Positions 6,888 through 20,477 of a stretch of DNA of 64,000 nt are shown piece by piece (position 1 is the first letter of the stretch; every line of letters starts with the position of its first letter). Source of the stretch: a bacterium. GTDB lineage: Bacteria > Oederibacteriota > PGYV01 > Palsa-1178. The stretch is from NCBI GenBank assembly GCA_037138355.1, contig JBAXIL010000002.1, positions 3,728 through 67,727 on the forward strand, read 5' to 3'. The position numbers and the translations under genes are program-made. The notes beneath the pieces are model-generated. The model worked only from the letters and a program-made list of their open reading frames with translations. It was not told the DNA's origin and searched no databases.

Positions 6888-8556
6888 AACCACCATCTAT
6901 CATTGAATGCAAGGCGGCACCTGTCGGAACCATAGGCCAAACATTTTCTTCTCTTGATGTAATAAAATCCATTATTACCAAACCCTTATGAGCAAAAGCT
7001 TCTTTCAAGGTTTTTTCAACATCAGCTTTTTTCGTTATTCTAAATCCTTTTGCCCCATACGCTTCTGCAAGTTTTACAAAATCAACACTGTTTTCAATAA
7101 GTGTTGAAGAGTAGCGTTTCTCAAAAAATAATTCCTGCCACTGTCTCACCATACCAAGCCAACCATTATTTAAAATAACTATTTTTACAGGATAATTATA
7201 TTTAACTGCTGTAGCCAGTTCTTGTATATTCATTTGTATGGAACCATCTCCAGCAATATCAATAACCAGCTTGCCAGGATTTCCGGCTTGCGCGCCTATG
7301 GCTGCAGGTAAACCATAACCCATAGTTCCCAATCCACCTGAAGTCAAAAATGTTCTCGGTTTCTTAAACTTCGAAAACTGAGCCGCCCACATTTGATGTT
7401 GTCCCACTTCAGTCGTGATTATCGCTTCACCTTTAGTGAGCTCGGCTATTTTTTCTATAACAAACTGTGGTTTTATTTCAGTATCAGAATCTTTGTAAGT
7501 TAGCGGAAACTCTTTTGCCCAATCGGTTGTCTGCTTTACCCAAGACTTGTGCTCTAATTTTTTTATCTGAGTAGTCATCTCTTTTAAGATATTCTTTGCA
7601 TCACCCACAACAGGTAAATCTACTCTTATTATTTTAGATATAGAAGTAGGATCTATATCTATGTGCAATATTTTTGCATGTGGAGCAAAATCAGCAACTT
7701 TACCAGTCACCCTGTCATCAAAACGCGCGCCCACCGCTATCAATAAATCAGCTTCCTGAACTGCGTAATTTGCACAACGAGTACCATGCATGCCCAACAT
7801 TCCCATATTTAATTTATGTACAGTAGGAAAAGCATCCATAGCCATTAAAGTTGTAGTAACAGGAATCTCTGTCTTCTCAGCAAATTTTAACAGTTCTTCT
7901 GTGGCGCCAGATAATACAACCCCACCACCTACATACAAGACAGGTCTTTCGGCTTTTTCTACCATATTTACAGCTTTTTTTATCTGAAGTTTATTTCCTT
8001 CGTAAGTCGGCTTATATCCACGCAAATTTGGTTCTGTAGGATATGTTGTAAAATCCATAATTCCCGTCAAAATATCTTTTGGAAGATCAACTAAAACTGG
8101 ACCTGGCTTACCAGTGGACGCTATGTGAAAAGCATTTTTTATTGTCTGAGCCAATTCTTTAATATCCTTCACTATATAATTATGTTTTACTATAGGTCTT
8201 GTTATACCTGTAATATCAGCTTCCTGAAAAGCATCATTTCCAATAAGAGAAGTTGCCACCTGTCCTGTTAAAGCCACCATAGGAATAGAATCCATGTAAG
8301 CAGTCGCTATACCAGTCACCAAATTTGTAGCTCCAGGTCCTGAAGTTGCCAAACATACTCCCACCTTGCCTGTAGAACGCGCATAACCATCAGCCATGTG
8401 TGCTGCACCTTGCTCATGCCTTACAAGAATTAAATCAATTGCCTTTTCAGAATATAAAGCATCAAAAAGTGGAAGAACAACTCCGCCTGGATATCCAAAT
8501 ATAGTATCCACGCCTTCCTTTTTTAAACACTCAAGTAATATTTGTGAGCCATTCAT
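6880..8556 (-). CDS. ilvB: acetolactate synthase large (catalytic) subunit
   Basis: 558 aa with [35 protein letters not shown]. ThDP-binding motif GDGS...NN and FAD-binding region are present. Confidence 0.93.
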
Positions 8557-8609
8557 ATAATTCTCCTTTAATTTTAATTTAAAATATTTATTCGCAATTA
8601 AAACTGCGA

Positions 8610-10286
8610 CTATTTTTTAAAAATTGCTCCCGTAGAAGCGGATGTTACCATTTGTGAATATCTGTAAAGCACGCCGGACTTTACTTTTGGCTCTGGTTGT
8701 TTCCACTCTGACTTTCTTTTTTTCATTTCTTCGGCAGATACCAATAAATTAATCGACCGTGCCTTTATATCTATTGCTATAGTGTCGCCTTCGCGAACCA
8801 ATCCTATAGGACCACCTTCCATGGCTTCAGGTGATATATGTCCAATAGCTGCGCCTCTTGTGCCGCCTGAAAATCTGCCGTCTGTGATTAATGCCACATC
8901 TTTATCCAAGCCCATACCAGCAATTGCTGCAGTTGGAGCAAGCATTTCTCTCATGCCAGGTCCACCTTTTGGGCCTTCATATATAATAACCACGACATCA
9001 CCGGCCTTGATTTTTTTACCAAGAATTGCTTTTTGCGCATCTTCTTCAGATGTAAAAACCCTTGCCCTAACCTCCCTTTTCATCATCTCAGGCGCAACAG
9101 CTGATTGTTTTACAACAGCGCCCTCGGGAGCAATATTACCAAAAAGTATAGCCAGTCCGCCTTGCTGTGAATATGCGGTTTCCGCAGTTCTTATAATATC
9201 AGTATTATCATTTTCTGCATCTTTAATAATTTGCTTAATTGTTCCAGCAACTGTTTTTACATCAGTGTGTAGCAATTTCTTTTTCGAAAGTTCTTTCATT
9301 AATGCTGGTATGCCACCTGCTTCATTTAAATCAGAAATAAAATATTGTCTTCCGTCTGGAAGTTTTGCTGGTGACAACTTACAAAGATTCGGCGTTCTGG
9401 CTGATATCTCATTTATTGTTTTAAGTTCAAACTTTACTCCTGCTTCATCTGCTATTGCAGGTATATGAAGCACAGTATTTGTCGAGCCACCTAAAGCCAC
9501 ATCAACTGTTATGGCATTTTCAAATGCCTTTGCATTCATTATGTCGCGCGGTTTTAAATCATCTTTTACAAGCTGCATTATCTGCATACCAGCATTTTTT
9601 GCCAATCTTAAACGCTCAGAATAAACTGCAGGTATAGTACCATTTCCAGGCAGTGCCATTCCGAGTGCCTCGGTTATACAGTTCATAGTATTAGCAGTGA
9701 ACATGCCTGCACAAGAACCACAGGTAGGACAGCTTGCATTTTCGATTTTCAATAATGTCTTTTGGTCAAGCTTTCCGTTTGTGTATTCTCCCACAGCTTC
9801 AAAGCCGCCTGATATCAAATCATAATTTTTCCCATGATATTTACCCGCGAGCATTGCGCCGCCACTAATAAAAATAGAAGGCACATTTACTCTCGCTGCT
9901 GCCATGAGCATTCCTGGTACAACTTTATCACAATTAGGGATAAATACTAAACCATCAAAAGGATATGCATTCGCCATAATTTCTACGCCGTCTGCTATAA
10001 GTTCGCGCGATACAAGTGAATATTTCATTCCAGCGTGTCCCATAGCAATGCCATCACACACTCCTATAGAAGGAAATTCCATTGGTGTTCCGCCAGCCAT
10101 TCTGATACCGTCTTTTACTGCCTGTGCTATGGTGTTCAAATGTATATGACCAGGAATAACTTCATTAAATGAATTTACAACTCCAATTATAGGTCTTTTC
10201 AACTCTTCATCAGTATATCCAATAGCTTTAAATAATGCCCTATGCGGCGTTCTTTCTATACCTTTTTTCATTGCGTCTGATCTCAT
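8610..10286 (-). CDS. ilvD: dihydroxy-acid dehydratase
   Basis: The ILVD/EDD family signature begins at [24 protein letters not shown]... The track ORF extends 46 codons further upstream into the leader, which is read-through. The start was set at the ATG at 10284-10286, which has a GGTGA RBS. Cys cluster ligands ([10 protein letters not shown]) are present. Confidence 0.92.
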
Positions 10287-10445
10287 GTTTTCACCTATAC
10301 CTTTTAATTTGATATTACATCTATCTTTGTCAAATGTTTCAAGACCAAATAGACAATAAACAGAAAACTCAAATAAACATAAACAAAATGTTTCTATAAA
10401 GATAAAACACAAAGAGTATAACAAAAATAATACTTCGCTTCAATC

Positions 10446-10475
10446 AAAAAAGCCCTAAACTATGGCTGTTTTTTC
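10446..10475 (-). terminator. rho-independent terminator-like hairpin in the ilvD 5' leader (candidate attenuator terminator)
   Basis: In mRNA sense AAAAAACAGCC-AUAGUUUAG-GGCUUUUUU: a 4-5 bp GC core extended by an A6/U6 stem and a U-tract. It lies about 160 nt upstream of the ilvD ATG and about 200 nt downstream of the leader ORF stop. Confidence 0.5.
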
Positions 10476-10683
10476 TGTTGCGCATTATAAAACCCTATAT
10501 TTTTAAGGCATATTTTCGCTTAAATATTAAGTAAAACTATCGGTCATTTTATCACTAATTTTTGCTATTTTATTACCAATATTAACAAAAACAAATAATT
10601 ATTGATATACCTATCACGGCGCTTGAAACCTTGTATTTGGGGTTTATTTCTTGAATTCCCGGGTTTCTGCGCCGTGTCCAGCT

Positions 10684-10800
10684 TTATGCTAGGACAACGA
10701 CAAGAAGCCCAGTAAGTAAAAGGACTACTACTGGAAGTACAAATGCGGATATAATAATGTTTGTGTATGTTTTTGTAAACTTTCTGTAATTGTTTGCCAT
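10684..10800 (-). CDS. 38-aa branched-chain-rich small ORF; candidate ilv-leu leader peptide (alternatively a small membrane peptide)
   Basis: Not in the ORF track because it is under 60 aa. AAGGAGG lies 7 nt before the ATG. Translation is MANNYRKFTKTYTNIIISAFVLPVVVLLLTGLLVVVLA; 17 of 38 residues are I/V/L, in runs III, VVVLLL and LLVVVL. It sits immediately downstream of a near-consensus promoter and upstream of ilvD. Confidence 0.5.
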   Translation of the reverse strand: MANNYRKFTKTYTNIIISAFVLPVVVLLLTGLLVVVLA

Positions 10801-10824
10801 TTTTATATCCTCCTTTGTGTTAAA

Positions 10825-10853
10825 ACTATAACAAATATAATTACTCATGTCAA
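10825..10853 (-). promoter_or_regulatory. sigma70-type promoter TTGACA-N17-TATAGT for the ilv-leu leader transcript
   Basis: On the minus strand the -35 TTGACA is at 10848-10853 and the -10 TATAGT at 10825-10830, with an exact 17-nt spacer. The leader RBS and ATG begin about 25 nt downstream. Confidence 0.55.
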
Positions 10854-10915
10854 ATAAAATCTTAAATTAATATAAAAAATTTTATATTATGAATAATTAA
10901 ATTAAATTGCGTACT

Positions 10916-12067
10916 TTATTTTGGATACTCTTGTCCTTGCCCTAAAACTGCATGTACCTTCGGCATCCATGAACTTATTTCAATCTGCTGAGGACACTTC
11001 ACTTCACACTCTTTACACTGAGTACACACAAAAGCCCTGTTCTCTGGTTTTACCCAAACCTCATACACATAACGAGATGAACCAGCATCATCAAATATTC
11101 TACCATCGTTATACAATTCAAAGTTTCTCGGTATTGCCACTCCCTGTGGACAAGGCATACAATAATCACAAGCCGTACATGGTATAACTGAACGACTTGC
11201 AAATTCTGCTTTAACCTTTTCTAAAAGATTTAAGTCTTCTGTAGTTAAATGGTTTGCTGTTGACTTGTGAGCCGACTGTAAATTTTCTACCACCTGCTCA
11301 TAATTACTCATGCCACTTAGTATGGTTGATACTTCTGGATGGTCCCATATCCATTGCAAAGCATATTCTGCTGGTGTTCTTTGTATTGTTGTTTTAGAAA
11401 GTATTTTTTTAACATTTTCAGGAGGTCTTGCCAACTTTCCTCCCAATAAAGGTTCCATAATAATTATTGGAATTTTTTTTGCAGCGGCATATTTTAATCC
11501 TGCTGTTCCTGCCTGATTATTAATATCCATATAATTATATTGTATTTGGCAAAACTCCCATTTATCATAACTATCAACAACCCTCAAGAAAGCATCCGCT
11601 TTATCATGAAACGAAAAACCTATATGCCCTATCTTTCCTGCTTTTTTTGCTTCTTCCATTTTTTTAAAAAGGTCAAATTTGCGCATATTAGCCAGACCAC
11701 CATCACCTATACCGTGAAATAAATAATAATCTATATGTTCTACATCTAATTTTTCTAACTGCTCATTTAAAAACTTATCAAAATCTCCTTCTTCTTTTAT
11801 AAGACCTACTGGCAACTTAGTTGCGAGTCTAATCTTTTTTCTGTAACCATCTTTGAGTGCTTTCCCTACAACTACTTCGCTTACTCCATTATGATAAAAA
11901 TATGCTGTATCTATGTAATTTATCCCTTCATCCACTCCATAGCGCATAATTCTAATACTTTCTTTTTCATCCACAGTTTTTCCATCTGGTAAATTAGGCA
12001 AACGCATTGCTCCAAATCCAAGAACAGATATTTTCCAGCCATCGCTTCCAAAAGGTCTATATTGCAT
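10916..12067 (-). CDS. aldo/keto reductase family oxidoreductase with C-terminal 4Fe-4S ferredoxin-type domain
   Basis: 383 aa. An AKR TIM-barrel N-terminal part is followed by two Cys clusters (CTACDYCMPCPQG and CTQCKECEVKCPQ). It is 71 bp downstream of dctM on the same strand. Confidence 0.85.
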   Translation of the reverse strand: MQYRPFGSDGWKISVLGFGAMRLPNLPDGKTVDEKESIRIMRYGVDEGINYIDTAYFYHNGVSEVVVGKALKDGYRKKIRLATKLPVGLIKEEGDFDKFLNEQLEKLDVEHIDYYLFHGIGDGGLANMRKFDLFKKMEEAKKAGKIGHIGFSFHDKADAFLRVVDSYDKWEFCQIQYNYMDINNQAGTAGLKYAAAKKIPIIIMEPLLGGKLARPPENVKKILSKTTIQRTPAEYALQWIWDHPEVSTILSGMSNYEQVVENLQSAHKSTANHLTTEDLNLLEKVKAEFASRSVIPCTACDYCMPCPQGVAIPRNFELYNDGRIFDDAGSSRYVYEVWVKPENRAFVCTQCKECEVKCPQQIEISSWMPKVHAVLGQGQEYPK

Positions 12068-12138
12068 TTAAAACTCCTTATTTGATTTCCACAGAATACA
12101 TCAGGTGGTATTTAATAATCATATTATTAAAAAACTAT

Positions 12139-13416
12139 TTATTCAACTTTAAGCAATTTAATCAAAAACAAACTGATATCAGGTACATAAGTTATAAGCA
12201 TTAGAACCATAAACATAATAATAAGAAAAGGCACAGCAGATTTTGCCAAAGACATTACTGGTTTTCTGAACCTGAAGCTCGCTATAAATAGATTTATGCC
12301 TGCAGGTGGGGCATTATACCCTATCTCTAAATTGGTTAAAAATATCATTGCCATGTGAACAGGATCTATACCAAACTCCTTTGCAATTGGAACCATAAGC
12401 GGAAGTACGACTATAAGTGCCGAGAACACATCAAGAACAGCCCCAACTATTATAAGGAAAATATTTAACAATAAGAGAAATAGCCATTTCTCTCTTATGT
12501 ACATTTTCATCCAATCCAAAATCCTCATAGGTATTTGTTCATCCACTAAATAATTAGTAAGTCCCATAGCAGAACCTAAAATCACAAATATACCGCCAAC
12601 AACTATCATAGACGACCTTATAATACGAGGCACATCATGTTTCATATTTAAATCCTTATAAATAAAAACTTCTACAATAAAAGCATACACAGCTGTAAGT
12701 ATGGCCGCTTCTGACGGAGTGAAAGTCCCACTATAAATCCCCCAGATAACAACTAAAGGAAGAGGAATTTCCCAGGCAGCACCTTTAATGGCCTTCAATA
12801 ATTTTTTAAAAGAAAATGGTTCAACTTCGGCAACTACCATACCTTCTTTCAAACAATAAACAGCAAAAATAATAATTAATATTAATCCAGGAATAATACC
12901 AGCAATAAACAATTTGGAAATTGAAACTTTTGCTAAAACTCCATAAAGAATAAGTAACAAGCTTGGAGGAAAAAGAAGACCGATACTTCCCGAAGTAGTT
13001 AACAACCCAAGCGAAAACTTTTCAGAATATTTATCTTTAATCAACATAGGAAGAAGAAGGCCACCAAGTGCAATAATAGTCACTCCAGAAACACCAGTGA
13101 AGGAAGTAAAGAACGCACATACCAATAAAGTAACTATAGCAGTGCCGCCTTTAAACCAACCAACAGCAGCGCGAGATAAAGCAATTAGTCTTTTTGGCGT
13201 TCCTGATTCTGCTAACATATAGCCAGCAAAAGTAAAAAGTGGAATTGATATCAAAACAGAATTAGTCGCAATCCTGCTTATTTCAATAATAACAGCTGCT
13301 ATATCAATTCCTGCTATAGCAAAAAGAACTATTGCTAAGCCACCAAATACAATAAATAAAGGAGTACCAATTAGGGCAAGACCTATGAGCGCCAGTCCTA
13401 TTATAAGAGATATCAT
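12139..13416 (-). CDS. dctM: TRAP transporter large permease subunit
   Basis: 425 aa polytopic membrane protein with a DctM-family profile. It overlaps the dctQ stop by 4 nt. Confidence 0.9.
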   Translation of the reverse strand: MISLIIGLALIGLALIGTPLFIVFGGLAIVLFAIAGIDIAAVIIEISRIATNSVLISIPLFTFAGYMLAESGTPKRLIALSRAAVGWFKGGTAIVTLLVCAFFTSFTGVSGVTIIALGGLLLPMLIKDKYSEKFSLGLLTTSGSIGLLFPPSLLLILYGVLAKVSISKLFIAGIIPGLILIIIFAVYCLKEGMVVAEVEPFSFKKLLKAIKGAAWEIPLPLVVIWGIYSGTFTPSEAAILTAVYAFIVEVFIYKDLNMKHDVPRIIRSSMIVVGGIFVILGSAMGLTNYLVDEQIPMRILDWMKMYIREKWLFLLLLNIFLIIVGAVLDVFSALIVVLPLMVPIAKEFGIDPVHMAMIFLTNLEIGYNAPPAGINLFIASFRFRKPVMSLAKSAVPFLIIMFMVLMLITYVPDISLFLIKLLKVE

Positions 13417-13904
13417 TTTTTTATTCCTTTAATCATGCCCTTTGCAGATACAATAATAGACTGCAAGTAAACGAGAGCCATAAAAAAGAAAGTAAATGGA
13501 ATCACTGTTTCAAGAACCCATATAGGAACAAAAAAGATACTCTGACTACCAGAAATTTCAGAAATTATAAAATCTACTGAAGCTTTGAAAAGAAATGATA
13601 GAATAACAAAGGATACCGTGCTAATTAAAAAAACGATGAGGTTTTTGTTAAGTTTTTTAAGGGCTTTTGAAACGACATCAAGGCTTATATGCCTTCCTTT
13701 ATAAGAAGCCAAACAAGCACCTAAAAAAGCCACCCACAAAACGAGATAACGCATCATGCCTTCTGCATTACTAATTCCACTATGAAAAATAAGTCTTAAC
13801 ACAATCTGCGCTGCTGACAATATAAGCAATATCATAAAAAGCAGCACAACTGCAATTTTTATTAATCTATATAGATTATAATTAATTAATTTTAATATTT
13901 TCAA
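13413..13904 (-). CDS. dctQ: TRAP transporter small permease subunit
   Basis: 163 aa with 4 TM helices, positioned between dctP and dctM. Confidence 0.8.
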   Translation of the reverse strand: MKILKLINYNLYRLIKIAVVLLFMILLILSAAQIVLRLIFHSGISNAEGMMRYLVLWVAFLGACLASYKGRHISLDVVSKALKKLNKNLIVFLISTVSFVILSFLFKASVDFIISEISGSQSIFFVPIWVLETVIPFTFFFMALVYLQSIIVSAKGMIKGIKK

Positions 13905-14933
13905 CTATTGCTTTACCTTCCTGCCATCAGCCAAATACTTAAGCATTTCATCTAACATAGCCTTAGTATAATATTTACCTACAAGATCATTTCCTGTTTT
14001 TTCACTAACGAACTCAAAATATTTCTCATCTTCAGGCTTCTGTATTTTAGTGAAAACAATACCCTGTTTTTTCAACACATTCAATGCATCTTCGTTTTCT
14101 TTTCTTGACATTTTAGTTAATTTATCAAAATACTTTTTGCTCGATTCCTTTACAATTATTTGATACTTCAAAGGAATCTTGTCCCACATATTTTTACTCA
14201 CAAGAACACCACCAGGAACATTGGCAATCTTTAAATCAAGCATATATTTTACTTTTGTATTCCACTGCATAGCAATTGCTGATAAAGAAGAACAATACAC
14301 ACCTTCAATAAGTCCTGTTTGTAATGACTGCAAAACATCCGTAATAGAGAGTGGTATAGGAACAATCTTTAGATTTTTAAAGAGCGTACCAACAAGTACA
14401 TCATCTCCCCATATCCACATTTTGGTTTTCTGCAAATCGGAAAGTGTCTCCACTTTATTCTTAGTAAATACATATATATATCCAACTTCTGGCCAGCCAA
14501 GAACAACAAAACCTTTGTCAGCAAACTTTTTTTCAAATGTAGGAATCATTTTTATCATTACAGAATCAACATCTTTATAAGACTGAAAGAGAAGTGGTAG
14601 ATTTAAAAGCCGAACTTCTGGCACTACTTCACCCAAACCTTGAGAAGTAAAACCACCTGCTTGTAATTGTTTAATATTGATTTTTCTAATAACATCTTTT
14701 TCATCTCCCATAACACCGCCTGGATAAAACTTAAACTTTACTTCACCATTAGTTTTTTGCTGTATCTCATCATTTAATTCATTCATAATGTTCATCCATG
14801 TAGACCCATCTGGTGCAATTGATGCCAATTTTATTTCGTACTTTGCAGGCGCAGCCCATATAAATACAGCTGTCAGCATTGCAACCAATAACATAATAAT
14901 TTTTTTCATAAAACCTCCTAAGATTAACTTCAT
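13905..14933 (-). CDS. dctP: TRAP transporter substrate-binding protein (TatP/DctP type)
   Basis: 342 aa with a signal peptide and the DctP-family periplasmic SBP fold. The true start is possibly MKKIIMLL at 14909. Confidence 0.88.
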   Translation of the reverse strand: MKLILGGFMKKIIMLLVAMLTAVFIWAAPAKYEIKLASIAPDGSTWMNIMNELNDEIQQKTNGEVKFKFYPGGVMGDEKDVIRKINIKQLQAGGFTSQGLGEVVPEVRLLNLPLLFQSYKDVDSVMIKMIPTFEKKFADKGFVVLGWPEVGYIYVFTKNKVETLSDLQKTKMWIWGDDVLVGTLFKNLKIVPIPLSITDVLQSLQTGLIEGVYCSSLSAIAMQWNTKVKYMLDLKIANVPGGVLVSKNMWDKIPLKYQIIVKESSKKYFDKLTKMSRKENEDALNVLKKQGIVFTKIQKPEDEKYFEFVSEKTGNDLVGKYYTKAMLDEMLKYLADGRKVKQ

Positions 14934-14953
14934 CGAAACTTCCCTATTCTTGA

Positions 14954-15859
14954 TTAGAATATATCATTTTCCTTGAGCAATAATAACTCAGCCTTCTTTT
15001 TGGCTACCTGTGTGAACATATGCTCTGGTATAAGATCATTATCAGCATTTTGTATTCCTGTAATCAGTTGCTCAAAAAGTTCCTTATTCTGTGACTGGGA
15101 GGCATAAAACTTAGCCATAAAATAATCTGCTATTATCAACTTATCTCCTGAAATTGCCTTTATTTTATGATATTCAGCCTTGGCCTTCTCTAAATCTCCA
15201 CCAAACATAGCTGGCATTGAATATGTCACGATAAGAAAGAGATGCGGAATTCCATAGAAATATGTAGTGTCCAATTCTATTACTCTATTTATAATAGCAA
15301 CAACTTTCGGCAGATCAGCTATATCAGATGCCGAGTTTCTATTTAAATTCACATAACTACCCCACGCAAAAGCTGTCCAAAACAAAGCATCAATATCATT
15401 TTTTCCAAAGGTTGGCATTACTTTGACAAAATCATCCAGCGAACCTTCTGCCACTGCTTTAAAATCATTATTTTTCAGCATCACTTTCATACCATAATCT
15501 TTTGCTTTTTTGTAAAAGTTGGACGCTCTTCTTGAATTAATTTTTTCTTCTTTTCTATCTTGCCCTTCATCTTCAAGAAATGCCATAGCATACATGCCAT
15601 AAAGTTTGCAGCCCTTAATAAGTAGTCCATCATTTTCATTATTTGAACCTTTTATCAGTCCATCCAATAACTTTAAATTTGCAGGACCAGCCTGTTTAGC
15701 AAAATCCATATCTGTCTCAGCTAAAAACTCATCCACCACATCATCCATAAAAAGCGCAGTAGAATTAATTACCGTTGTTTTAAGTGAACATCCACCCAAC
15801 ACTATAGCTATGAGAATCGCCGCTATAAAAACAATTGAAACTCTTAAAATTTTATTCAT
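14954..15859 (-). CDS. tatT: TatT-like TPR lipoprotein (T-component of TPR-protein-associated TRAP transporters)
   Basis: Start trimmed to MNKILRVSIVFIAAILIAIVLGGCS, which carries a lipobox. The protein is helical and TPR-like, with segments such as ALFWTAFAWGSYVNL and TYFYGIPHLFLIV, and resembles the TatT family. It lies immediately upstream of dctP-dctQ-dctM. Confidence 0.6.
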   Translation of the reverse strand: MNKILRVSIVFIAAILIAIVLGGCSLKTTVINSTALFMDDVVDEFLAETDMDFAKQAGPANLKLLDGLIKGSNNENDGLLIKGCKLYGMYAMAFLEDEGQDRKEEKINSRRASNFYKKAKDYGMKVMLKNNDFKAVAEGSLDDFVKVMPTFGKNDIDALFWTAFAWGSYVNLNRNSASDIADLPKVVAIINRVIELDTTYFYGIPHLFLIVTYSMPAMFGGDLEKAKAEYHKIKAISGDKLIIADYFMAKFYASQSQNKELFEQLITGIQNADNDLIPEHMFTQVAKKKAELLLLKENDIF

Positions 15860-16622
15860 ATTTGTCAACTCCTTCAGGCAGTTTTTCCTTCCATATGCCT
15901 GTTGTCTCATCAAATATTTTATAACCTGCAAGATCAGCCCTGTGTCCAGATGTCTCTGCAATAGTATATCCTAAGCCTTTAGCATACCAATATTTTTCTG
16001 AATGAACTCCCTTGCCATCGCCTTCATCTACATTTGCTACTATGTTATATGCCTCAAAATCACCTGCTTCAGTCTTAATTGTTTCTTTGCTTACTACTTC
16101 AAAATCTGTTTTCAAATCCCTCCCCACTTTAATAAAGCCCAAGAGAGTTGCCTCTCCCCTGCCCACATAAGTCCACTTATTACCTACAACAAGCGGGAAC
16201 TTCATAAATGTCATTTCAGGAGTTAAAGTAACTTCTATAGACATATCAAAAAACGGAAAAGGATATTTGATTATTTTCATGGCAATGCCATTTTCTTTAT
16301 CTATGTTAATTAAATATCTAATATCCACTTGCGGCGCATAAAAATAATGATAATCCTTTCCATCTCTTTGTTCTATTGCTTTTGTTTCAGCTTTAACATA
16401 AAGAAGCTTCTCTGGATTTTTTTTTCTACGACCTTTTAAGTAAAGTATATTTCCCACATGACCGGGATAATACATATAAGAATCATCCACTACTACGGTA
16501 GCTTCTATTTTTGGATTAGTAACATTTTTTGCTTTTGCTGACGAAGCAGTCGCAGTATAAGCAGCAAAAGGAACAATCAACATAAGCGAAATTAAAAATA
16601 TTTTATTCATATCTTCCTCCAT
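15852..16622 (-). CDS. secreted DUF3108-like protein (hypothetical)
   Basis: 256 aa with signal peptide MNKIFLISLMLIVPFAAYTATASSA. The C-terminal motif KTEAGDFEAYNIVANV...KYWYAKGLG resembles TTDAGEFDCIVVQPFL...IWIWLTN in the LysM-DUF3108 protein at 25323-26375. Confidence 0.6.
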   Translation of the reverse strand: MEEDMNKIFLISLMLIVPFAAYTATASSAKAKNVTNPKIEATVVVDDSYMYYPGHVGNILYLKGRRKKNPEKLLYVKAETKAIEQRDGKDYHYFYAPQVDIRYLINIDKENGIAMKIIKYPFPFFDMSIEVTLTPEMTFMKFPLVVGNKWTYVGRGEATLLGFIKVGRDLKTDFEVVSKETIKTEAGDFEAYNIVANVDEGDGKGVHSEKYWYAKGLGYTIAETSGHRADLAGYKIFDETTGIWKEKLPEGVDKYE

Positions 16623-16727
16623 AAAGTAGTATCAATTTTTAACAGAATATCACATAGCCCATACAGTGTCAATTGCACTTCTATAGGTTACGAGCCATTT
16701 ATTTACTTGTTGTTTACAACCTTTTTC

Positions 16728-17522
16728 TTAAAAACAGATTCCCACAGTTGCCCCAATCATTACAGAAAGAGTTGATGTGGGATTGTTTTTATTATCTTCA
16801 CTTTTTGATGGTGTAGTAATATTGTCTTTTTTTAGTCTTGTCCTACCTGCATATAAATCAAATTCTATTGATGCCATAAGAATAGAATCAGTAATCCAAG
16901 TAACTCCACCAGTTAAATATCCTCCAGTAAATTCTTTTGTAAATTTAACATTATCGTCTATACCAGTATCAGCGTTACTGACCTTGTCACTATAGTACAA
17001 ATCCATCATTGTAAAACCAACTCCATAGAACGGTGCCCAATCATCATCTGCTGCTGAATAATTTCCAGAAATAGCCCAAGATGAATTTTTTTCATGATTT
17101 TTATTAGCCAAAAGCCAAGATATAGTTGAGTATTCTGCAGCGACTCTCCAATTCTCATTAATAAAATAACCTAACTTTGTACCCATTGAACTCGGAGTAG
17201 ACAAAGTCTGTTCTATCGTAAAATGTTTTTTCATTCTGGCTTCAGACTTCTTCTGAATTGCTTTTGATGCCTCTTCAACAGTAGGTTCTGGTTCATCTGG
17301 ACTCTCATACAAATCCATTTCTGAAGCATTTGGCAATGCGCCTTCCATTTCAGGAGTAGCTTTTGGCACTGCAGTTGTAGTTAATGCCGCACCAACTATT
17401 TCAACTGTGCTCGGAACTGCAATCGGAGTAATTGAAAGATTGGTAGCTGTATCAACTGCCATAACTAAGCTTGACAAGAAAAATATTGATAAAAAAGAAA
17501 CTAACAAAAATATATTTCTCAC
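16728..17522 (-). CDS. small outer-membrane beta-barrel protein with Pro/Glu-rich N-terminal linker
   Basis: The start was reassigned to a GTG with GGAGG 6 nt upstream. It has a signal peptide (VRNIFLLVSFLSIFFLSSLVMA), a low-complexity segment (TPEMEGALPNASEMDLYESPDEPEPTVEE), then amphipathic beta-strand-like repeats ending in a C-terminal Phe (TVGICF). Confidence 0.65.
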   Translation of the reverse strand: MRNIFLLVSFLSIFFLSSLVMAVDTATNLSITPIAVPSTVEIVGAALTTTAVPKATPEMEGALPNASEMDLYESPDEPEPTVEEASKAIQKKSEARMKKHFTIEQTLSTPSSMGTKLGYFINENWRVAAEYSTISWLLANKNHEKNSSWAISGNYSAADDDWAPFYGVGFTMMDLYYSDKVSNADTGIDDNVKFTKEFTGGYLTGGVTWITDSILMASIEFDLYAGRTRLKKDNITTPSKSEDNKNNPTSTLSVMIGATVGICF

Positions 17523-17550
17523 ACTAAACCTCCAAAATATTTTTGAATTA

Positions 17551-18909
17551 CTACTTACTACCAACAAGTATCTTTGGAATTCTAAGCGTTGGCTGGGCAT
17601 CACAAACTGGGGAACCCTGTCCGTCCTTACCGCATGTGCCTGAATCAAAACCTAAATCAGTACACACTGCATCAATTGTATTTAAAACTGCCTTTCCAGT
17701 TCCCATAAGTGTCGCGCCACGAACTGGATATGTTATAACTCCATTTTCTATTAAGTAACCATCTTTAACTTCAAAAACAAACTCGCCTGTTACTGTATTA
17801 ACCTGCCCTCCACCCATCTTAACTACAAATATGCCATTTTTTGTGTCTTTTATAAGGTCAGCACTTAAACCCGTGCCTGGAGTAATCATTGTATTTCTCA
17901 TTCTTGGTATGGGTTTAAATTTATACGACTCACGCCTGCCATTTCCAGTTGATTCTGTTTTATCCTTAAGAGCCGTTTCTCTATCATACATAAAGTTCTT
18001 TAAAATGCCTTTTTCTATAAGCACGGTCTTTTGTGAAGGGGTTCCCTCGTCATCAAAAGATAAGGATCCGCGTTTGTTCAGCAGTGTGGCATCATCTAAA
18101 ACAGTAATAATTTCAGAAGCTACCTTTTTTCCTTTCTCACCCTGATACTGAGACAAACCTTTTTGAACCAAATCAGCTTCAAGTGAATGTCCAACGGCCT
18201 CATGAATCATAGTACCCCCAGCACTTGAAGAAATAACAGCTGTCATAGGGCCAGTTATTTTTTTGTTAGCATCAAGCAAGCGTAAAGCTAAGCTGGCAGC
18301 TAAGTCTGCTTTTTCAAAAACATCTTCAAATTCAAAAACTTCAAACCCTCTACGCGCAGCCAATACATGATATCCAGTTTCTATGCGTCCATTTTTTTCT
18401 GCAATAACCATAATAGCACAGTTTGTATAAACCCGATCTTCACGGGTTACTTCTTTCTTATCATTATAAATTACCACCTGCTGTTTTTTTTCTGAATAGT
18501 TTATGGTGACTTGTCTTATTAATCCGCTTTTCGACCTAACTCTGTCATTTATCTCTTTCAATAGATCAATTTTTTTTTGTATAGCAACAGAATCATGTGG
18601 TATTTTTGTCTCATGTATTACGGAAGGTTTTAGCTCATTAAAAATAATATCTTTACCCAAACCAGCTGCCCCGCATATATGTTCAGCAGTTTTATTTAGT
18701 GCGGCTAAATCATTAGTGTATCCATACACTGTTTTATAATCTTTTACACCTCTTAACCCTATTCCAAAATCTAAACCTGGCATTATTTTATCCACGCGAT
18801 TGTCTTCAAAGGTTATTATAGTGGAGACAACTGTTTCCTCGAAGATGTCCCATATTTGAAAACCCGCATTGATAAAACTGCGGGCTATGTTACCGTACAT
18901 GACCGTCAT
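17551..18909 (-). CDS. tldD: TldD/PmbA family metalloprotease (peptidase U62)
   Basis: 452 aa with the TldD/PmbA fold signature, including the conserved HExxxH-like HEAVGHSLEAD and the GxC C-terminal region. Confidence 0.85.
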   Translation of the reverse strand: MTVMYGNIARSFINAGFQIWDIFEETVVSTIITFEDNRVDKIMPGLDFGIGLRGVKDYKTVYGYTNDLAALNKTAEHICGAAGLGKDIIFNELKPSVIHETKIPHDSVAIQKKIDLLKEINDRVRSKSGLIRQVTINYSEKKQQVVIYNDKKEVTREDRVYTNCAIMVIAEKNGRIETGYHVLAARRGFEVFEFEDVFEKADLAASLALRLLDANKKITGPMTAVISSSAGGTMIHEAVGHSLEADLVQKGLSQYQGEKGKKVASEIITVLDDATLLNKRGSLSFDDEGTPSQKTVLIEKGILKNFMYDRETALKDKTESTGNGRRESYKFKPIPRMRNTMITPGTGLSADLIKDTKNGIFVVKMGGGQVNTVTGEFVFEVKDGYLIENGVITYPVRGATLMGTGKAVLNTIDAVCTDLGFDSGTCGKDGQGSPVCDAQPTLRIPKILVGSK

Positions 18910-19069
18910 TTTTTTTATTTTCTTCTAATATAACTGCCACCAACCATATTACAAACACAAGAGAAAATAAAATTATGTATAAAAAAATGATATTGAAACC
19001 GAATTTAAACATTCCAAATATTGCCATACATGTAATTACTGAAAATAAGATTACTAAAAACTCATACAT
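18890..19069 (-). CDS. possible small membrane protein (about 59 aa)
   Basis: The internal Met start MYEFLVILFSVITCMAIFGMFKFGFNIIFLYIILFSLVFVIWLVAVIL gives two predicted TM helices. The track ORF's N-terminal 29 aa overlap rnhA and were discarded. Weak call. Confidence 0.25.
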   Translation of the reverse strand: MYEFLVILFSVITCMAIFGMFKFGFNIIFLYIILFSLVFVIWLVAVILEENKKNDGHVR

Positions 19070-19484
19070 TTCTGATATTGCCTCCCCTTTTTGAACCTTC
19101 CTTTGAGAGCTTATCAGCTTCTTTATTCTTTTCACGAGGAATATGAGTGACTTCAAACTTAATATCTTTTTTGTATGTCAAAGCCAACTTTACAAACTCC
19201 TGTAATTTTTCATCTCTTACTTTATATTCTCCAGATAACTGTTTTACCATAAGCTCACTATCTGAAAAAACATGAAGCTCTTTAATTTTATGTTTTCTTG
19301 CCATTTCCAAAAGGTGCGTCAAAGCAGTATACTCGGCAACATTATTAGTAGCCGTACCAATATACTTTGACTCAACCAAAATCTGATCTTTCCCCTTGTA
19401 TATGACAACACCTATACCAGCATGTCCTGGGTTGCCACTGGAGGCGCCATCAATAAAAGCTGTATATTTTTCATGTTCAATCAT
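19062..19484 (-). CDS. rnhA: ribonuclease HI
   Basis: 140 aa with MIEHEKYTAFIDGASSGNPGHAGIGVVIY. RNase H catalytic residues are present (DGA...E...D...HIPREKNKEAD). Confidence 0.88.
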   Translation of the reverse strand: MIEHEKYTAFIDGASSGNPGHAGIGVVIYKGKDQILVESKYIGTATNNVAEYTALTHLLEMARKHKIKELHVFSDSELMVKQLSGEYKVRDEKLQEFVKLALTYKKDIKFEVTHIPREKNKEADKLSKEGSKRGGNIRNV

Positions 19485-19522
19485 AAAAACTCCTTGTTTT
19501 TCGTGAATTATCTAACATAAAA

Positions 19523-19551
19523 ATTATAGCAAATATAATGGGTTAAGGCAA
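19523..19551 (-). promoter_or_regulatory. candidate sigma70 promoter for rnhA (TTGCCT-N17-TATAAT)
   Basis: On the minus strand the -35 is at 19546-19551 and the -10 TATAAT at 19523-19528, about 30 nt upstream of the rnhA RBS. Confidence 0.4.
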
Positions 19552-19664
19552 CAAAGAAAAGGATGATTAAAAGATAGGGGTTTCAATAAAAGCTCTATAA
19601 TATATGGGGTTTTACAGAATAAATATCATTACATTTGAAACCAAGGCAAACTACTTTGTCTTAT

Positions 19665-20477
19665 TTACTCATTGACTAAATCGTAAATTTCTTTTAACTT
19701 TCTCAACACTGGTTCAACTTTATCAAGCGCATATTGCGAATCTTTATCAGACAAAGCCTTTTTCGGATTAGGATGGACCTCCATAAATACACCTGTTGCC
19801 CCTGCAGCTACTGCTCCTCTGGCTATGGTATCAATATATTCCCTATCGGCTCCGCTACGGTTTCCAGCTCCACCAGGACGCTGAACAGCATGAGTAGCAT
19901 CAATAATAACTGGATAACCAGTTTTTCTCATATATGCTATGGATTTCAAATCAACCACCAAATTATTATAACCAAAAGAAAAACCTCTCTCTGTTAACAT
20001 TATTTCCTTGTTTCCTGTTGATAGAGCTTTTTGTATTATGTTATCCATTTCAAAAGGTGATAAAAACTGTCCCTTTTTAATATTAATTATTTTTCCTGTT
20101 TTTGCAGCAGCAACTATTAAATCTGTCTGCCTACACAAAAATGCAGGTATTTGTAATATATCAACAACCTTTGCTGTTTGAACCACATCTTTTGTTTCAT
20201 GAACATCAGTTAATACTGGAAGAGAAAGCTTTTCTTTTATCTTTGCCATAAGATTTAGACCTTTTTTTATTCCTGGTCCACGAAAACTTCCAAGAGAGGT
20301 ACGATTCGCTTTATCATAGGAGGCTTTGAAAACAAAAGGCATACCCAATCTTTGCGTTATTTCTTTAAGCTTCTCAGCTATCAAAAAAGCCATTTTTTCA
20401 TTTTCTATAACACAAGGACCAGCAATTAAGAAAAGTCCTTTTCCTGTAATCTCAGAGTATTTTTTTGAAAGTTTCAT
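19665..20477 (-). CDS. kdsA: 3-deoxy-8-phosphooctulonate (KDO8P) synthase
   Basis: 270 aa with MKLSKKYSEITGKGLFLIAGPCVIENE, a DAHP/KDO8P synthase family signature. Confidence 0.92.
   Translation of the reverse strand: MKLSKKYSEITGKGLFLIAGPCVIENEKMAFLIAEKLKEITQRLGMPFVFKASYDKANRTSLGSFRGPGIKKGLNLMAKIKEKLSLPVLTDVHETKDVVQTAKVVDILQIPAFLCRQTDLIVAAAKTGKIINIKKGQFLSPFEMDNIIQKALSTGNKEIMLTERGFSFGYNNLVVDLKSIAYMRKTGYPVIIDATHAVQRPGGAGNRSGADREYIDTIARGAVAAGATGVFMEVHPNPKKALSDKDSQYALDKVEPVLRKLKEIYDLVNE

What the first reader, a model, noticed from the sequence alone, without database searches (positions are those of the whole stretch)
10916..17522. Possible complete trans-envelope uptake pathway: OMP, secreted DUF3108-like protein, TatT lipoprotein, TRAP SBP/permease and an Fe-S aldo/keto reductase in one co-directional cluster
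Seen in sequence. Seven consecutive minus-strand genes are separated by short gaps. A small C-terminal-Phe beta-barrel OMP with a Pro/Glu-rich linker is followed by a secreted DUF3108-like protein, then a TPR lipoprotein resembling TatT (4-nt overlap context), then dctP-dctQ-dctM, and after a 71-bp gap an aldo/keto reductase carrying two 4Fe-4S-type Cys clusters. Established knowledge: TPR-protein-associated TRAP transporters (TPATs, the Treponema TatT/TatP paradigm) have no defined ligand and are suspected to handle hydrophobic molecules. Inference: the OMP and DUF3108 protein may form the outer-membrane and periplasmic legs of the same pathway, and the AKR-FeS enzyme may be the first cytoplasmic catabolic step. 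A second DUF3108 paralogue is fused to LysM inside the LPS heptose cluster (25323-26375), which hints that DUF3108 proteins here are envelope or lipid associated.
Basis: partly seen in the sequence, partly recalled or inferred. Interest (0 to 1): 0.6.

Follow-up and report, generated by a model that had tools for sequence, protein, structure and literature searches.

The report
TRAP lipid importer with extra barrel
This is a TatT-type TRAP transporter, a kind recently linked to fatty-acid uptake, that in one uncultured phylum always carries an extra secreted beta-barrel gene fused onto its front end, whereas the neighbouring outer-membrane protein and the Fe-S reductase are neighbours only in one clade.

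Summary
All seven genes exist as described. HMMs confirm TatT (PF16811, 1.4e-62), DctP/Q/M and an aldo/keto reductase with two CX2CX2CX3CP motifs. Structure prediction confirms an 8-stranded OmpA/OprF-like barrel and a YmcC/DUF3108-like soluble barrel.

Co-directionality is not evidence here, because about 41 kb of the window runs on one strand.

Comparative data split the cluster.
- **Conserved core.** DUF3108-like + tatT + dctPQM is a conserved five-gene module in the candidate phylum Goldiibacteriota (FCPU426). The barrel gene lies directly upstream of tatT in 19/19 assessable TatT loci, usually overlapping its start (8 nt here). It stays there in at least four different flanking contexts.
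- **Lineage limit.** The barrel gene is absent from 60 TatT-TRAP loci of Bacteroidota, Ignavibacteriota, Kryptoniota and others.
- **OMP and reductase.** Both occur only in one monophyletic subclade. The OMP sits 28 nt behind tldD, and a conserved promoter-like element follows it. The reductase is separated from dctM by inserted genes in relatives.

The DctP subunit has Trp where carboxylate-binding TRAP proteins have Arg-147, as expected for a hydrophobic ligand.

Verdict: a known transporter type with an undescribed fifth component. The seven-gene "trans-envelope pathway" is only partly supported.

The parts
15852..16610 (-). Secreted YmcC/DUF3108-like beta-barrel protein (252 aa, SPI-type signal peptide). 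Proposed fifth, periplasmic component of the TatT-TRAP system.
14954..15859 (-). TatT, the TPR lipoprotein T-component (301 aa, lipobox LGGC). Its start overlaps the stop of the barrel gene by 8 nt.
   Evidence: PF16811 1.4e-62. PDB sequence hits to 8g52 (Es_TatT with palmitate) at 4.6e-11 and to Tp0956 (3u64) at 5e-7. Overlap read.
13905..14909 (-). DctP-type solute-binding protein (TatP-like). SPI signal peptide. Trp165 stands in place of the Arg-147 carboxylate clamp.
   Evidence: PF03480 3.8e-44 and NF037995 7.6e-93. Tp0957 is among the closest solved relatives (8e-25). Trp at the Arg-147 column in the window, in all 27 Goldiibacteriota-lineage DctPs and in all 57 DctPs of the other phyla.
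13413..13904 (-). DctQ, the small membrane subunit. Its TTG start follows the dctP stop with no gap.
   Evidence: PF04290 1.8e-20; junction read.
12139..13416 (-). DctM, the large membrane subunit. It overlaps dctQ by 4 nt.
   Evidence: PF06808 2e-80; TIGR00786 1.7e-105.
16644..16672 (-). Promoter-like element (TTGACA, 17 nt, TGnTATTCT) in the 117-nt gap upstream of the barrel gene. Probable start of the five-gene unit.
   Evidence: Consensus scan, 10/12 with TG. The same element is conserved in L013, L014 and L016 while the flanking intergenic sequence does not align. Function is inferred, not shown.
16728..17522 (-). Neighbour, not a conserved part. Eight-stranded OmpA/OprF-like outer-membrane barrel with a disordered, Pro/Glu-rich N-terminal periplasmic extension and a C-terminal Phe.
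10916..12067 (-). Neighbour, not a conserved part. Aldo/keto reductase with a C-terminal domain carrying two [4Fe-4S] motifs. The catalytic tetrad D53/Y58/K84/H118 is intact.
   Evidence: PF00248 1.8e-42 plus Fer4_9. Two CX2CX2CX3CP motifs read from the translation. Present only in the same subclade, and separated from dctM by inserted genes in L002, L014-L017 and L019.
17551..18909 (-). tldD metalloprotease gene (context). It is the ancestral upstream neighbour of the module.
   Evidence: PmbA_TldD domains. Upstream of the barrel gene or the OMP in most related loci.

Best explanation
[quoted passage not shown] It most likely imports a hydrophobic, fatty-acid-like molecule.

In the candidate phylum Goldiibacteriota (FCPU426) this transporter has acquired a fifth gene, a secreted YmcC/DUF3108-like beta-barrel. 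In some lineages the product is lipid-anchored. The gene is translationally coupled to tatT.

**Proposed mechanism.**
1. The barrel protein captures or shields the hydrophobic ligand in the periplasm and passes it to the open end of the TatT pore. This step is inferred.
2. TatT docks on DctP and passes the ligand into the DctP cleft. This is shown for the Treponema proteins in the literature.
3. The DctP cleft here lacks the arginine clamp and carries Trp instead. This is shown by alignment.
4. DctQM carries the ligand across the inner membrane using an ion gradient. This is established for TRAP transporters.

The five genes probably form one transcription unit starting at the promoter-like element at 16672-16644. 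The OMP and the Fe-S aldo/keto reductase are neighbours inherited within one subclade. They are not components of the system.
For: - **Family assignments.** TatT, DctP, DctQ and DctM are assigned by HMM. TatT has a lipobox and is related to the palmitate-bound Es_TatT 8g52 and to Tp0956.
- **Ligand type.** TatT proteins bind long-chain fatty acids, and the TatT pore aligns with the TatP cleft (PMC11713862; PMC5812351). The Arg-147 equivalent is Trp in the window DctP and in all 84 TatT-associated DctPs examined. Tp0957 has Ala at this position (PMC4646407).
- **Position of the barrel gene.** It is immediately upstream of tatT in 19/19 assessable Goldiibacteriota loci from a TatT-centred scan. 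It is there in 11/14 loci from a barrel-centred metagenome scan. It is also there in four of the six distinct homologue contexts looked up individually.
- **Coupling.** Stop and start overlap by 4 to 14 nt in most loci, and by 8 nt in the window.
- **The module moves as a unit.** It is found behind tldD, behind ABC permease and HD genes, behind GH1/GH18 genes, and behind unknown genes. One MAG carries two copies (L021, L025).
- **Fold.** Soluble barrel closest to 4fvs, 3fzx and YmcC, with weaker similarity to lipovitellin, LmcA, LolA, LprG and LppX lipid binders.
- **Export.** Signal peptides or lipoboxes are present in all full-length orthologues.
Against: - No experiment or transcript data exist. 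Co-transcription and any physical contact with TatT are inferred.
- A divergent subclade keeps the barrel gene directly behind tldD, with a 4-nt overlap, and has no tatT or TRAP genes nearby. L004 has 10 kb of downstream sequence and L106 has 5 kb. The barrel protein is therefore not strictly dependent on an adjacent TPAT.
- TPATs of 60 loci in other phyla work without any such gene.
- More distant, tail-less relatives of the barrel lie in unrelated contexts.
- The ligand is extrapolated from TatT proteins that share only weak sequence similarity with this one (about 1e-7 to 1e-11).
Confidence: 0.55

Rival explanations
1. All seven genes form one trans-envelope uptake and catabolism pathway: the OMP is the entry channel, the DUF3108-like protein is the periplasmic carrier, TatT and DctPQM import the ligand, and the AKR-FeS enzyme is the first cytoplasmic step.
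Against: - The OMP-plus and AKR-plus loci form a single clade, so this is one event and not repeated association.
- Both genes are absent from all other Goldiibacteriota modules and from 60 TPAT loci in other phyla.
- The OMP is 19-53 nt behind tldD. A conserved promoter-like element follows it in 4 of 7 relatives.
- The best fold matches of the OMP are structural OprF/OmpA barrels.
- Gluconokinase-like and GH2-like genes are inserted between dctM and the reductase in relatives, and the reductase has its own conserved promoter-like element there.
- The whole 41-kb region is co-directional.
- A fatty-acid-type ligand would first be activated to an acyl-CoA or acyl-ACP, not reduced. This last point rests on established knowledge.
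Confidence: 0.1
2. The DUF3108-like barrel has nothing to do with transport. It is an envelope protein whose position next to tatT reflects inherited gene order behind tldD in this phylum.
For: The ancestral arrangement is tldD, then the barrel gene, in most loci. One subclade keeps tldD and the barrel gene, with a 4-nt overlap, and has no TPAT nearby. Other phyla run TPATs without it. Relatives of the barrel occur in unrelated contexts.
Against: When the gene is separated from tldD it stays with tatT, in at least three other contexts. A duplicated module in one MAG keeps it (L021 and L025). The overlap with the tatT start codon is conserved. TldD has no signal peptide in its translation and the family is a cytoplasmic protease (established knowledge), whereas the barrel protein is exported. 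That makes a TldD partnership implausible.
Confidence: 0.2
3. The barrel protein is a TPAT accessory but not a ligand carrier. It could instead be an assembly or anchoring factor that positions TatT, or a regulator or plug of the TatT pore.
For: The synteny evidence is the same as for the best explanation. The closest structures (4fvs, 3fzx, YmcC) have no demonstrated lipid binding. The conserved C-terminal segment (EKLPEGVEKYE) suggests a protein-protein contact surface. TPR proteins such as TatT commonly bind partner proteins (PMC5812351).
Against: The C-terminal segment is modelled as packed on the barrel with high confidence rather than free. TatT of Treponema needs no such factor to trimerise and bind TatP.
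Confidence: 0.15

Closest known systems
Treponema pallidum TPAT: TatT (Tp0956), TatP(T) (Tp0957) and TatQM (Deka et al. 2012; Brautigam et al. 2012, as reviewed in PMC5812351)
   Same: A TatT-family TPR lipoprotein is encoded next to DctP-type and DctQ/M-type genes. The P subunit lacks the Arg-147 clamp and so has a hydrophobic cleft. The gene order is T, P, Q, M.
   Different: Q and M are separate genes here and fused in Treponema. DctP here has an ordinary signal peptide, not a lipobox. Sequence similarity of TatT to Tp0956 is weak (5e-7). An additional secreted barrel gene overlaps the tatT start, and nothing equivalent is described for Treponema.
Enhygromyxa salina Es_TatT (PDB 8G52, palmitate-bound; Zhai et al. 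2023, cited in PMC11713862)
   Same: It is the best solved sequence relative of the window TatT (4.6e-11) and has the same family fold. It supports a long-chain fatty-acid-type ligand.
   Different: Only the C-terminal half aligns significantly. Ligand-contact residues were not compared. No fifth component is described for it in the text read.
TatT-DctPQM operons of Bacteroidota, Ignavibacteriota, Kryptoniota and KSB1 (L033-L092)
   Same: The four core genes are in the same order, share 35-43% TatT identity with the window, and have the same Trp at the Arg-147 column of DctP.
   Different: No DUF3108-like gene lies within 10 kb. Upstream neighbours are housekeeping genes such as PFK, a PLP enzyme, an aminotransferase and Band_7.
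YmcC-like / DUF3108-like barrels: BDI_3050 (4FVS), BF2203 (3FZX) and E. coli YmcC (2IN5)
   Different: None has a known function. No transporter link appears in their PDB descriptions or in the five papers that mention DUF3108, whose titles and abstracts alone were seen. The Goldiibacteriota family has an extra conserved C-terminal segment of about 20 residues. Identity is 12-14%.
Periplasmic lipid carriers LolA, LprG, LppX and LmcA
OmpW / AlkL and FadL outer-membrane channels for hydrophobic molecules
   Different: Its best matches are the structural barrels OprF and OmpA. No OmpW or FadL family hit was found. It is not conserved with the transporter.

Membership tests
TPAT (TPR-protein-associated TRAP transporter) | A TatT-family (PF16811) gene | tested here: met
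   PF16811 at 1.4e-62 and 211.8 bits, against a cutoff of 26.5. PDB hits 8g52 and 3u64.
TPAT (TPR-protein-associated TRAP transporter) | tatT adjacent to and co-oriented with dctP and dctQ/dctM | tested here: met
   The order is tatT, dctP, dctQ, dctM, with a 44-nt gap, a 0-nt gap and a 4-nt overlap. The same order holds in 80 related loci.
TPAT (TPR-protein-associated TRAP transporter) | TatT is a periplasmic lipoprotein | tested here: met
   The signal peptide ends in the lipobox L-G-G-C. G23 and C24 are nearly invariant in the TatT alignment. This is a sequence prediction only.
TPAT (TPR-protein-associated TRAP transporter) | The P subunit lacks the Arg-147 carboxylate clamp and has a hydrophobic cleft | tested here: met
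   Trp165 aligns with SiaP R147 and with the Ala of Tp0957 (PMC4646407).
TPAT (TPR-protein-associated TRAP transporter) | TatT trimer binds the P subunit; TatT binds long-chain fatty acid | not testable with these tools
   This needs biochemistry or complex modelling. It is known only for Tp0956/Tp0957 and Es_TatT.
TPAT (TPR-protein-associated TRAP transporter) | The genes are co-transcribed as one operon | not testable with these tools
   Only spacing, overlaps and a promoter-like element are available. There are no transcript data.
DUF3108_like (PF21347) / YmcC-like fold | Pfam score above the gathering threshold | tested here: inconclusive
   The score is 26.8 bits against a threshold of 27.0, matching only residues 172-234. 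The exact-sequence database entry P0001 and homologue P0010 carry a precomputed PF21347 hit.
DUF3108_like (PF21347) / YmcC-like fold | The fold matches the solved members 4fvs, 3fzx and 2in5 | tested here: met
DUF3108 (PF11306), as a paralogue of the LysM-DUF3108 protein | Detectable sequence homology to the window's PF11306 protein | tested here: not met
   BLASTP E 0.18, with only a short motif shared. No PF11306 hit for the TatT-linked protein.
OmpA-like 8-stranded outer-membrane barrel (PF13505 OMP_b-brl) | An eight transmembrane strand barrel, a signal peptide and a C-terminal aromatic residue | tested here: met
OmpW / AlkL hydrophobic-substrate channels | Family-level sequence match, or best structural match to OmpW or AlkL | tested here: not met
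Aldo/keto reductase with C-terminal 2x[4Fe-4S] domain | AKR domain with the D-Y-K-H tetrad, plus two CX2CX2CX3CP motifs | tested here: met
   PF00248 at 1.8e-42 and Fer4_9 at 5.6e-8. D53, Y58, K84 and H118 and both Cys motifs are read from the translation. No solved structure covers the Fe-S domain.

The most novel reading that the evidence does not exclude
The DUF3108/YmcC-like barrel is a true fifth subunit of a TRAP transporter. It would be a periplasmic, and in some lineages membrane-tethered, lipid shuttle that loads the open end of the TatT pore. That would give the first five-component TRAP system and the first function for the YmcC/DUF3108-like fold. In the window's subclade, the 8-stranded OMP with its conserved periplasmic extension could additionally be the entry point.
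Probability: 0.35. Interest if true: 0.6.

Novelty: new variant of a known kind. Interest (0 to 1): 0.4.

Why it matters
TatT-associated TRAP transporters have only recently been tied to fatty-acid binding. How a hydrophobic ligand reaches TatT across the periplasm is still unknown.

A conserved, translationally coupled barrel protein upstream of tatT offers a concrete candidate for that missing step. It also gives a first functional context for the YmcC/DUF3108-like fold, which has several solved structures but no assigned function.

The effect is limited to one uncultured phylum and rests on synteny and predicted structure, so it is a lead rather than a discovery.

The work also shows that the attractive complete trans-envelope pathway reading is mostly an effect of a long same-strand gene run and shared ancestry.

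Tried and rejected
- **Co-directionality as evidence.** Rejected, because genes 421-41729 are all on the minus strand.
- **Promoter and terminator scans.** Promoter-like sites are at chance level overall (38 found against 39 expected). The terminator-like hits all lie inside coding sequence. Only the element at 16672-16644 gained weight, through its conservation in relatives.
- **OMP and reductase as parts of the system.** Rejected after the DctM tree showed a single origin and relatives showed inserted genes and separate promoter-like elements.
- **A hidden analogue of the barrel gene in other phyla.** Upstream neighbours of tatT are housekeeping genes in the 9 such loci whose upstream ORF was scanned. 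Genes downstream of dctM fall into unrelated families such as MFS, methyltransferase, ferritin and MscL.
- **Free C-terminal tail as a TPR-binding peptide.** Weakened, because AF2 models the conserved tail (EKLPEGVEKYE) as packed on the barrel at high confidence.
- **LysM-DUF3108 as a paralogue.** No significant pairwise similarity.
- **Wider relatives of the barrel.** The profile search found 302 representatives. Three tail-less relatives that were checked are not near tatT.
- **Rfam for the ilvD leader region.** No hit.
- **Things that could not be done.**
  - The afdb50 fold library was unavailable.
  - The two original TPAT papers could not be read.
  - Whether the TPAT-less subclade carries tatT elsewhere could not be determined from contigs.
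  - Model coordinates could not be inspected for a cavity.
  - Complex prediction was not possible with the tools.

Full report
**1. Observation**

The ORF list shows seven consecutive minus-strand genes between 10916 and 17522.

Pfam and NCBIfam assign them as follows.
- An aldo/keto reductase with a C-terminal ferredoxin-type domain (Aldo_ket_red 1.8e-42, Fer4_9 5.6e-8). The translation shows two CX2CX2CX3CP motifs and an intact D53/Y58/K84/H118 tetrad.
- DctM (2e-80), DctQ (1.8e-20) and DctP (3.8e-44; NF037995 7.6e-93).
- TatT (PF16811, 1.4e-62).
- A protein scoring 26.8 bits on DUF3108_like, against a gathering score of 27.
- A protein scoring 20.9 bits on OMP_b-brl, against a gathering score of 28.7.

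Start codons were refined from the sequence.
- The barrel gene starts at 16610 (GGAGG, then ATG).
- tatT starts at 15859, dctP at 14909 and the OMP at 17522 (GTG).

The junctions are as follows.
- OMP to barrel gene: 117 nt.
- Barrel gene to tatT: 8-nt overlap (ATGAATAA).
- tatT to dctP: 44 nt.
- dctP to dctQ: 0 nt.
- dctQ to dctM: 4-nt overlap.
- dctM to reductase: 71 nt.

- Every gene from 421 to 41729 lies on the minus strand, so co-directionality carries no information.
- The OMP begins only 28 nt after tldD (17551-18909), so the cluster is not delimited upstream.

The flanks are housekeeping genes.
- Upstream lie the Kdo, heptose and CTP-synthase genes, then RNase H and tldD.
- Downstream lies an ilvD-ilvBN-ilvC-leuACDB operon.

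**2. The two uncertain proteins**

An AlphaFold2 model of the DUF3108-like protein was built on 24 homologues. It is confident (pLDDT 85.8, pTM 0.77) and all-beta from residue 55 to 243.
- Foldseek agrees on 4fvs, 2in5 and 3fzx, the last described as having a "YmcC-like fold".
- The family profile reaches 3fzx and 4fvs by sequence at about 1e-3.

The protein has an SPI-type signal peptide. Several orthologues instead have a lipobox followed by a long low-complexity tether. It is therefore an exported, soluble or tethered barrel of the YmcC/DUF3108-like kind.

The OMP model has a disordered N-terminal 70-80 residues and an eight-stranded barrel (pLDDT 80-90).
- OmpW (12.6) and AlkL (10.5) rank lower.
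- The protein ends in Phe.
- A Pro/Glu-rich motif (YExPGEPAPTAEEA) in the extension is conserved in its 16 homologues.

**3. Lineage**

Exact or near-exact database matches are MAG proteins from "bacterium" or Candidatus Goldbacteria/Goldiibacteriota, also called candidate division FCPU426. The barrel family is small.
- A word-indexed search of 5.8 billion proteins found 24 clusters.
- An exhaustive profile search of 1.84 billion representatives found 24 below 1e-30. It also found a tail of about 280 more distant proteins, typically around 200-220 aa.

**4. Synteny, the decisive evidence**

*Barrel-centred look-ups.*
- Most homologues are followed directly by tatT-dctPQM, namely L001, L002, L007, L009 and L011.
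- A divergent subgroup (41-42% identity) is the exception. There the gene overlaps the end of tldD and no TPAT follows. L004 has 10 kb of downstream sequence, beginning with cstA. L005 and L006 are too short to judge.

*TatT-centred scan.* A scan of one genome per species returned 80 loci, which were analysed with HMMs on six-frame ORFs.
- In the 20 Goldiibacteriota-type loci, the barrel gene is immediately upstream of tatT in all 19 that contain upstream sequence.
- In the 60 loci from Bacteroidota, Ignavibacteriota, Kryptoniota, KSB1 and others (35-43% TatT identity), no homologue occurs within 10 kb. Of these, 56 have at least 1 kb of upstream sequence.
- Their upstream neighbours are PFK, a PLP enzyme, an aminotransferase, Band_7 and a peptidase.
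- Their downstream neighbours are unrelated families.

*Metagenome scan.* A scan with the barrel profile added 14 loci. Eleven have tatT directly downstream. Three belong to the tldD-only subgroup; of these, only L106 has enough downstream sequence (5 kb) to show absence.

*Coupling and mobility.*
- The stop and start overlap is 4-14 nt in most loci.
- The five-gene module keeps its composition in different surroundings. It is found behind tldD with or without inserts, behind ABC permease and HD genes (L021, L022), behind unknown genes (L023), and behind GH1/GH18 genes (L028).
- One MAG has two copies (L021 and L025).

This pattern is what is expected of a functional partner, not of a passive neighbour.

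**5. The OMP and the reductase**

- Both occur only in the window, L002/L003, L013-L016 and L019. The reductase alone is seen in L017, whose contig starts at the barrel gene. L098 and L102 have both, and L101 and L103 have the OMP on contigs that end before the reductase position.
- A neighbour-joining tree of DctM places all of these in one clade. The association is therefore one historical event.
- Other Goldiibacteriota modules have different genes in those positions. Between tldD and the barrel gene these include DUF6789 plus a BcrAD-type protein, small ORFs, or nothing. After dctM they include an ECF sigma factor, a FlgD_ig protein or a transposase.
- The OMP follows tldD by 19-53 nt in all members.
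- The OMP-to-barrel spacer carries TTGACA, 17-18 nt, TGnTA(A/T)TCT. This element is conserved in the window, L013, L014 and L016 while the rest of the spacer is unalignable. It probably marks the promoter of the five-gene unit.
- Between dctM and the reductase, relatives carry a gluconokinase-like gene, sometimes with a GH2-like gene or other ORFs.
- L013 and L014 share a conserved promoter-like element just upstream of the reductase.

I conclude that neither gene is a component of the system, although co-expression in this particular genome cannot be excluded.

**6. What the transporter carries**

- The account by Dassama and colleagues (PMC11713862) reports that Tp0956 and a myxobacterial TatT bind long-chain fatty acids (structure 8G52 with palmitate; Zhai et al. 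2023).
- It also reports that about 2% of TRAP systems have a TatT.
- The review PMC5812351 summarises the Treponema work. TatT is a trimeric lipoprotein with a hydrophobic pore open at both ends. The C-terminal end of the pore aligns with the cleft of TatP(T).

The window proteins fit this picture.
- The window TatT hits 8g52 (4.6e-11) and Tp0956 (5e-7).
- Its DctP counts Tp0957 among its closest solved relatives.
- In alignments the Arg-147 selectivity residue of carboxylate-binding TRAP proteins (PMC4646407) is Trp165 in the window.
- It is Trp in all 84 TatT-linked DctPs examined. Tp0957 has Ala.

A hydrophobic ligand is thus well supported by analogy, but its identity is not shown.

**7. 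Mechanism proposed**

The exported barrel binds or shields the hydrophobic ligand and delivers it to the free, N-terminal mouth of the TatT pore. TatT passes it to DctP, and DctQM imports it.

| Step or claim | Status |
|---|---|
| Gene content, coupling and conservation | Shown here |
| Export signals and predicted folds | Shown here |
| Loss of the Arg clamp in DctP | Shown here |
| TatT-P docking | Taken from the literature |
| Fatty-acid binding by TatT | Taken from the literature |
| Ion-gradient-driven TRAP transport | Taken from the literature |
| Ligand binding by the barrel | Inferred only |
| Contact between the barrel and TatT | Inferred only |
| The transcription unit | Inferred only |

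The main counter-evidence is threefold.
- The tldD-only subgroup retains the barrel without an adjacent TPAT.
- TPATs in other phyla need no such protein.
- More distant relatives of the barrel sit in unrelated contexts. These are next to a methyltransferase-like gene, next to a glyoxalase plus an AKR, and next to a tocopherol-cyclase-like gene.

**8. Comparison and novelty**

The four core genes meet every sequence-testable criterion of a TPAT and are an ordinary new member. The fifth gene is not mentioned in the two papers whose TatT passages were read. Full-text searches for TatT/TPAT and for DUF3108 returned no title or abstract linking the two. I therefore classify the locus as a new variant of a known kind. 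The seven-gene pathway is not supported as such.

**9. Scores**

- Interest is 0.4. This is a useful, testable lead on how hydrophobic ligands reach TatT and on the function of the YmcC/DUF3108-like fold. It is confined to one uncultured phylum and based on synteny and models.
- The most novel reading not excluded is a true five-component TRAP system with the barrel as lipid shuttle. I give it probability 0.35 and interest 0.6 if true.

Noticed in passing
window 10683-10853 (minus strand), continuing to the ilvD start at 10283: A promoter-like site (TTGACA, 17 nt, TATAGT) and an RBS precede a 38-codon ORF, MANNYRKFTKTYTNIIISAFVLPVVVLLLTGLLVVVLA. About 400 nt of structured leader (fold z -3.2) then runs up to ilvD-ilvBN-ilvC-leuACDB. 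Ile/Leu/Val-rich peptides also lie upstream of ilvD in L002, L017 and L020. This looks like a branched-chain amino-acid attenuator leader. There is no Rfam match.
   Followed up: partly
window 421-41729: All ORFs of at least 120 aa that are plausible genes lie on the minus strand for about 41 kb. GC skew is negative throughout the part profiled, 8000-19999. Such strong strand bias makes gene clusters look like operons.
   Followed up: no
window 25323-26375; also L007, L011, L015, L025 and L030: A LysM plus DUF3108 (PF11306) protein sits between a heptosyltransferase and the GmhA/HldE-like genes. It is conserved at the same relative position in related genomes. Its role in the LPS-core cluster is unknown.
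   Followed up: partly
window about 18890-19075 (minus strand); related loci such as L001 3501-3680: A 59-62 aa hydrophobic mini-ORF overlaps the end of the RNase H gene and the start of tldD. It is called as a gene in all related loci and has no family assignment.
   Followed up: no
L014 6409-6906; L015 13663-15883; L019 5882-8124; L002 14573-15058; L017 5540-6046: In relatives, a gluconokinase-like (SKI/AAA_18) gene lies between dctM and the AKR-FeS gene, sometimes with a GH2 beta-glucuronidase-like gene. This hints that the reductase belongs with sugar-acid metabolism rather than with the transporter.
   Followed up: partly
L096 2184-3820; L094 1954-4046: Tail-less distant relatives of the barrel protein lie in other contexts. 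One overlaps a tocopherol-cyclase-like gene by 4 nt. Another follows a glyoxalase gene and an aldo/keto reductase gene.
   Followed up: no
L039, L041, L043, L058 and L062 (2-5 nt after dctM); L040 and L049 (about 157 nt): Kryptoniota/Bacteroidetes-labelled TPAT loci have a SAM-methyltransferase-like gene immediately downstream of dctM on the same strand. It may be an operon member there.
   Followed up: no
L021 and L025 (both from MAG SKW142, JAOAAI01): One Goldiibacteriota MAG carries two copies of the barrel-tatT-dctP module on different contigs. One copy has a lipoprotein version of the barrel and the other a secreted version.
   Followed up: partly
L015, L017, L018, L020, L027, L030 and L032 (record titles): Contigs carrying the Goldiibacteriota-type locus are labelled Spirochaetia or Methylomirabilis in their MAG records. 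This is probably binning or taxonomy mislabelling.
   Followed up: no
window 17225-17330 (OMP residues about 65-100): The periplasmic N-terminal extension of the OMP contains an invariant Pro/Glu-rich motif (YExPGEPAPTAEEA ... KHFTIEQT). It is conserved across all homologues, while the preceding Ala/Thr/Val-rich stretch is hypervariable. It may be a docking segment, but its partner is unknown.
   Followed up: no
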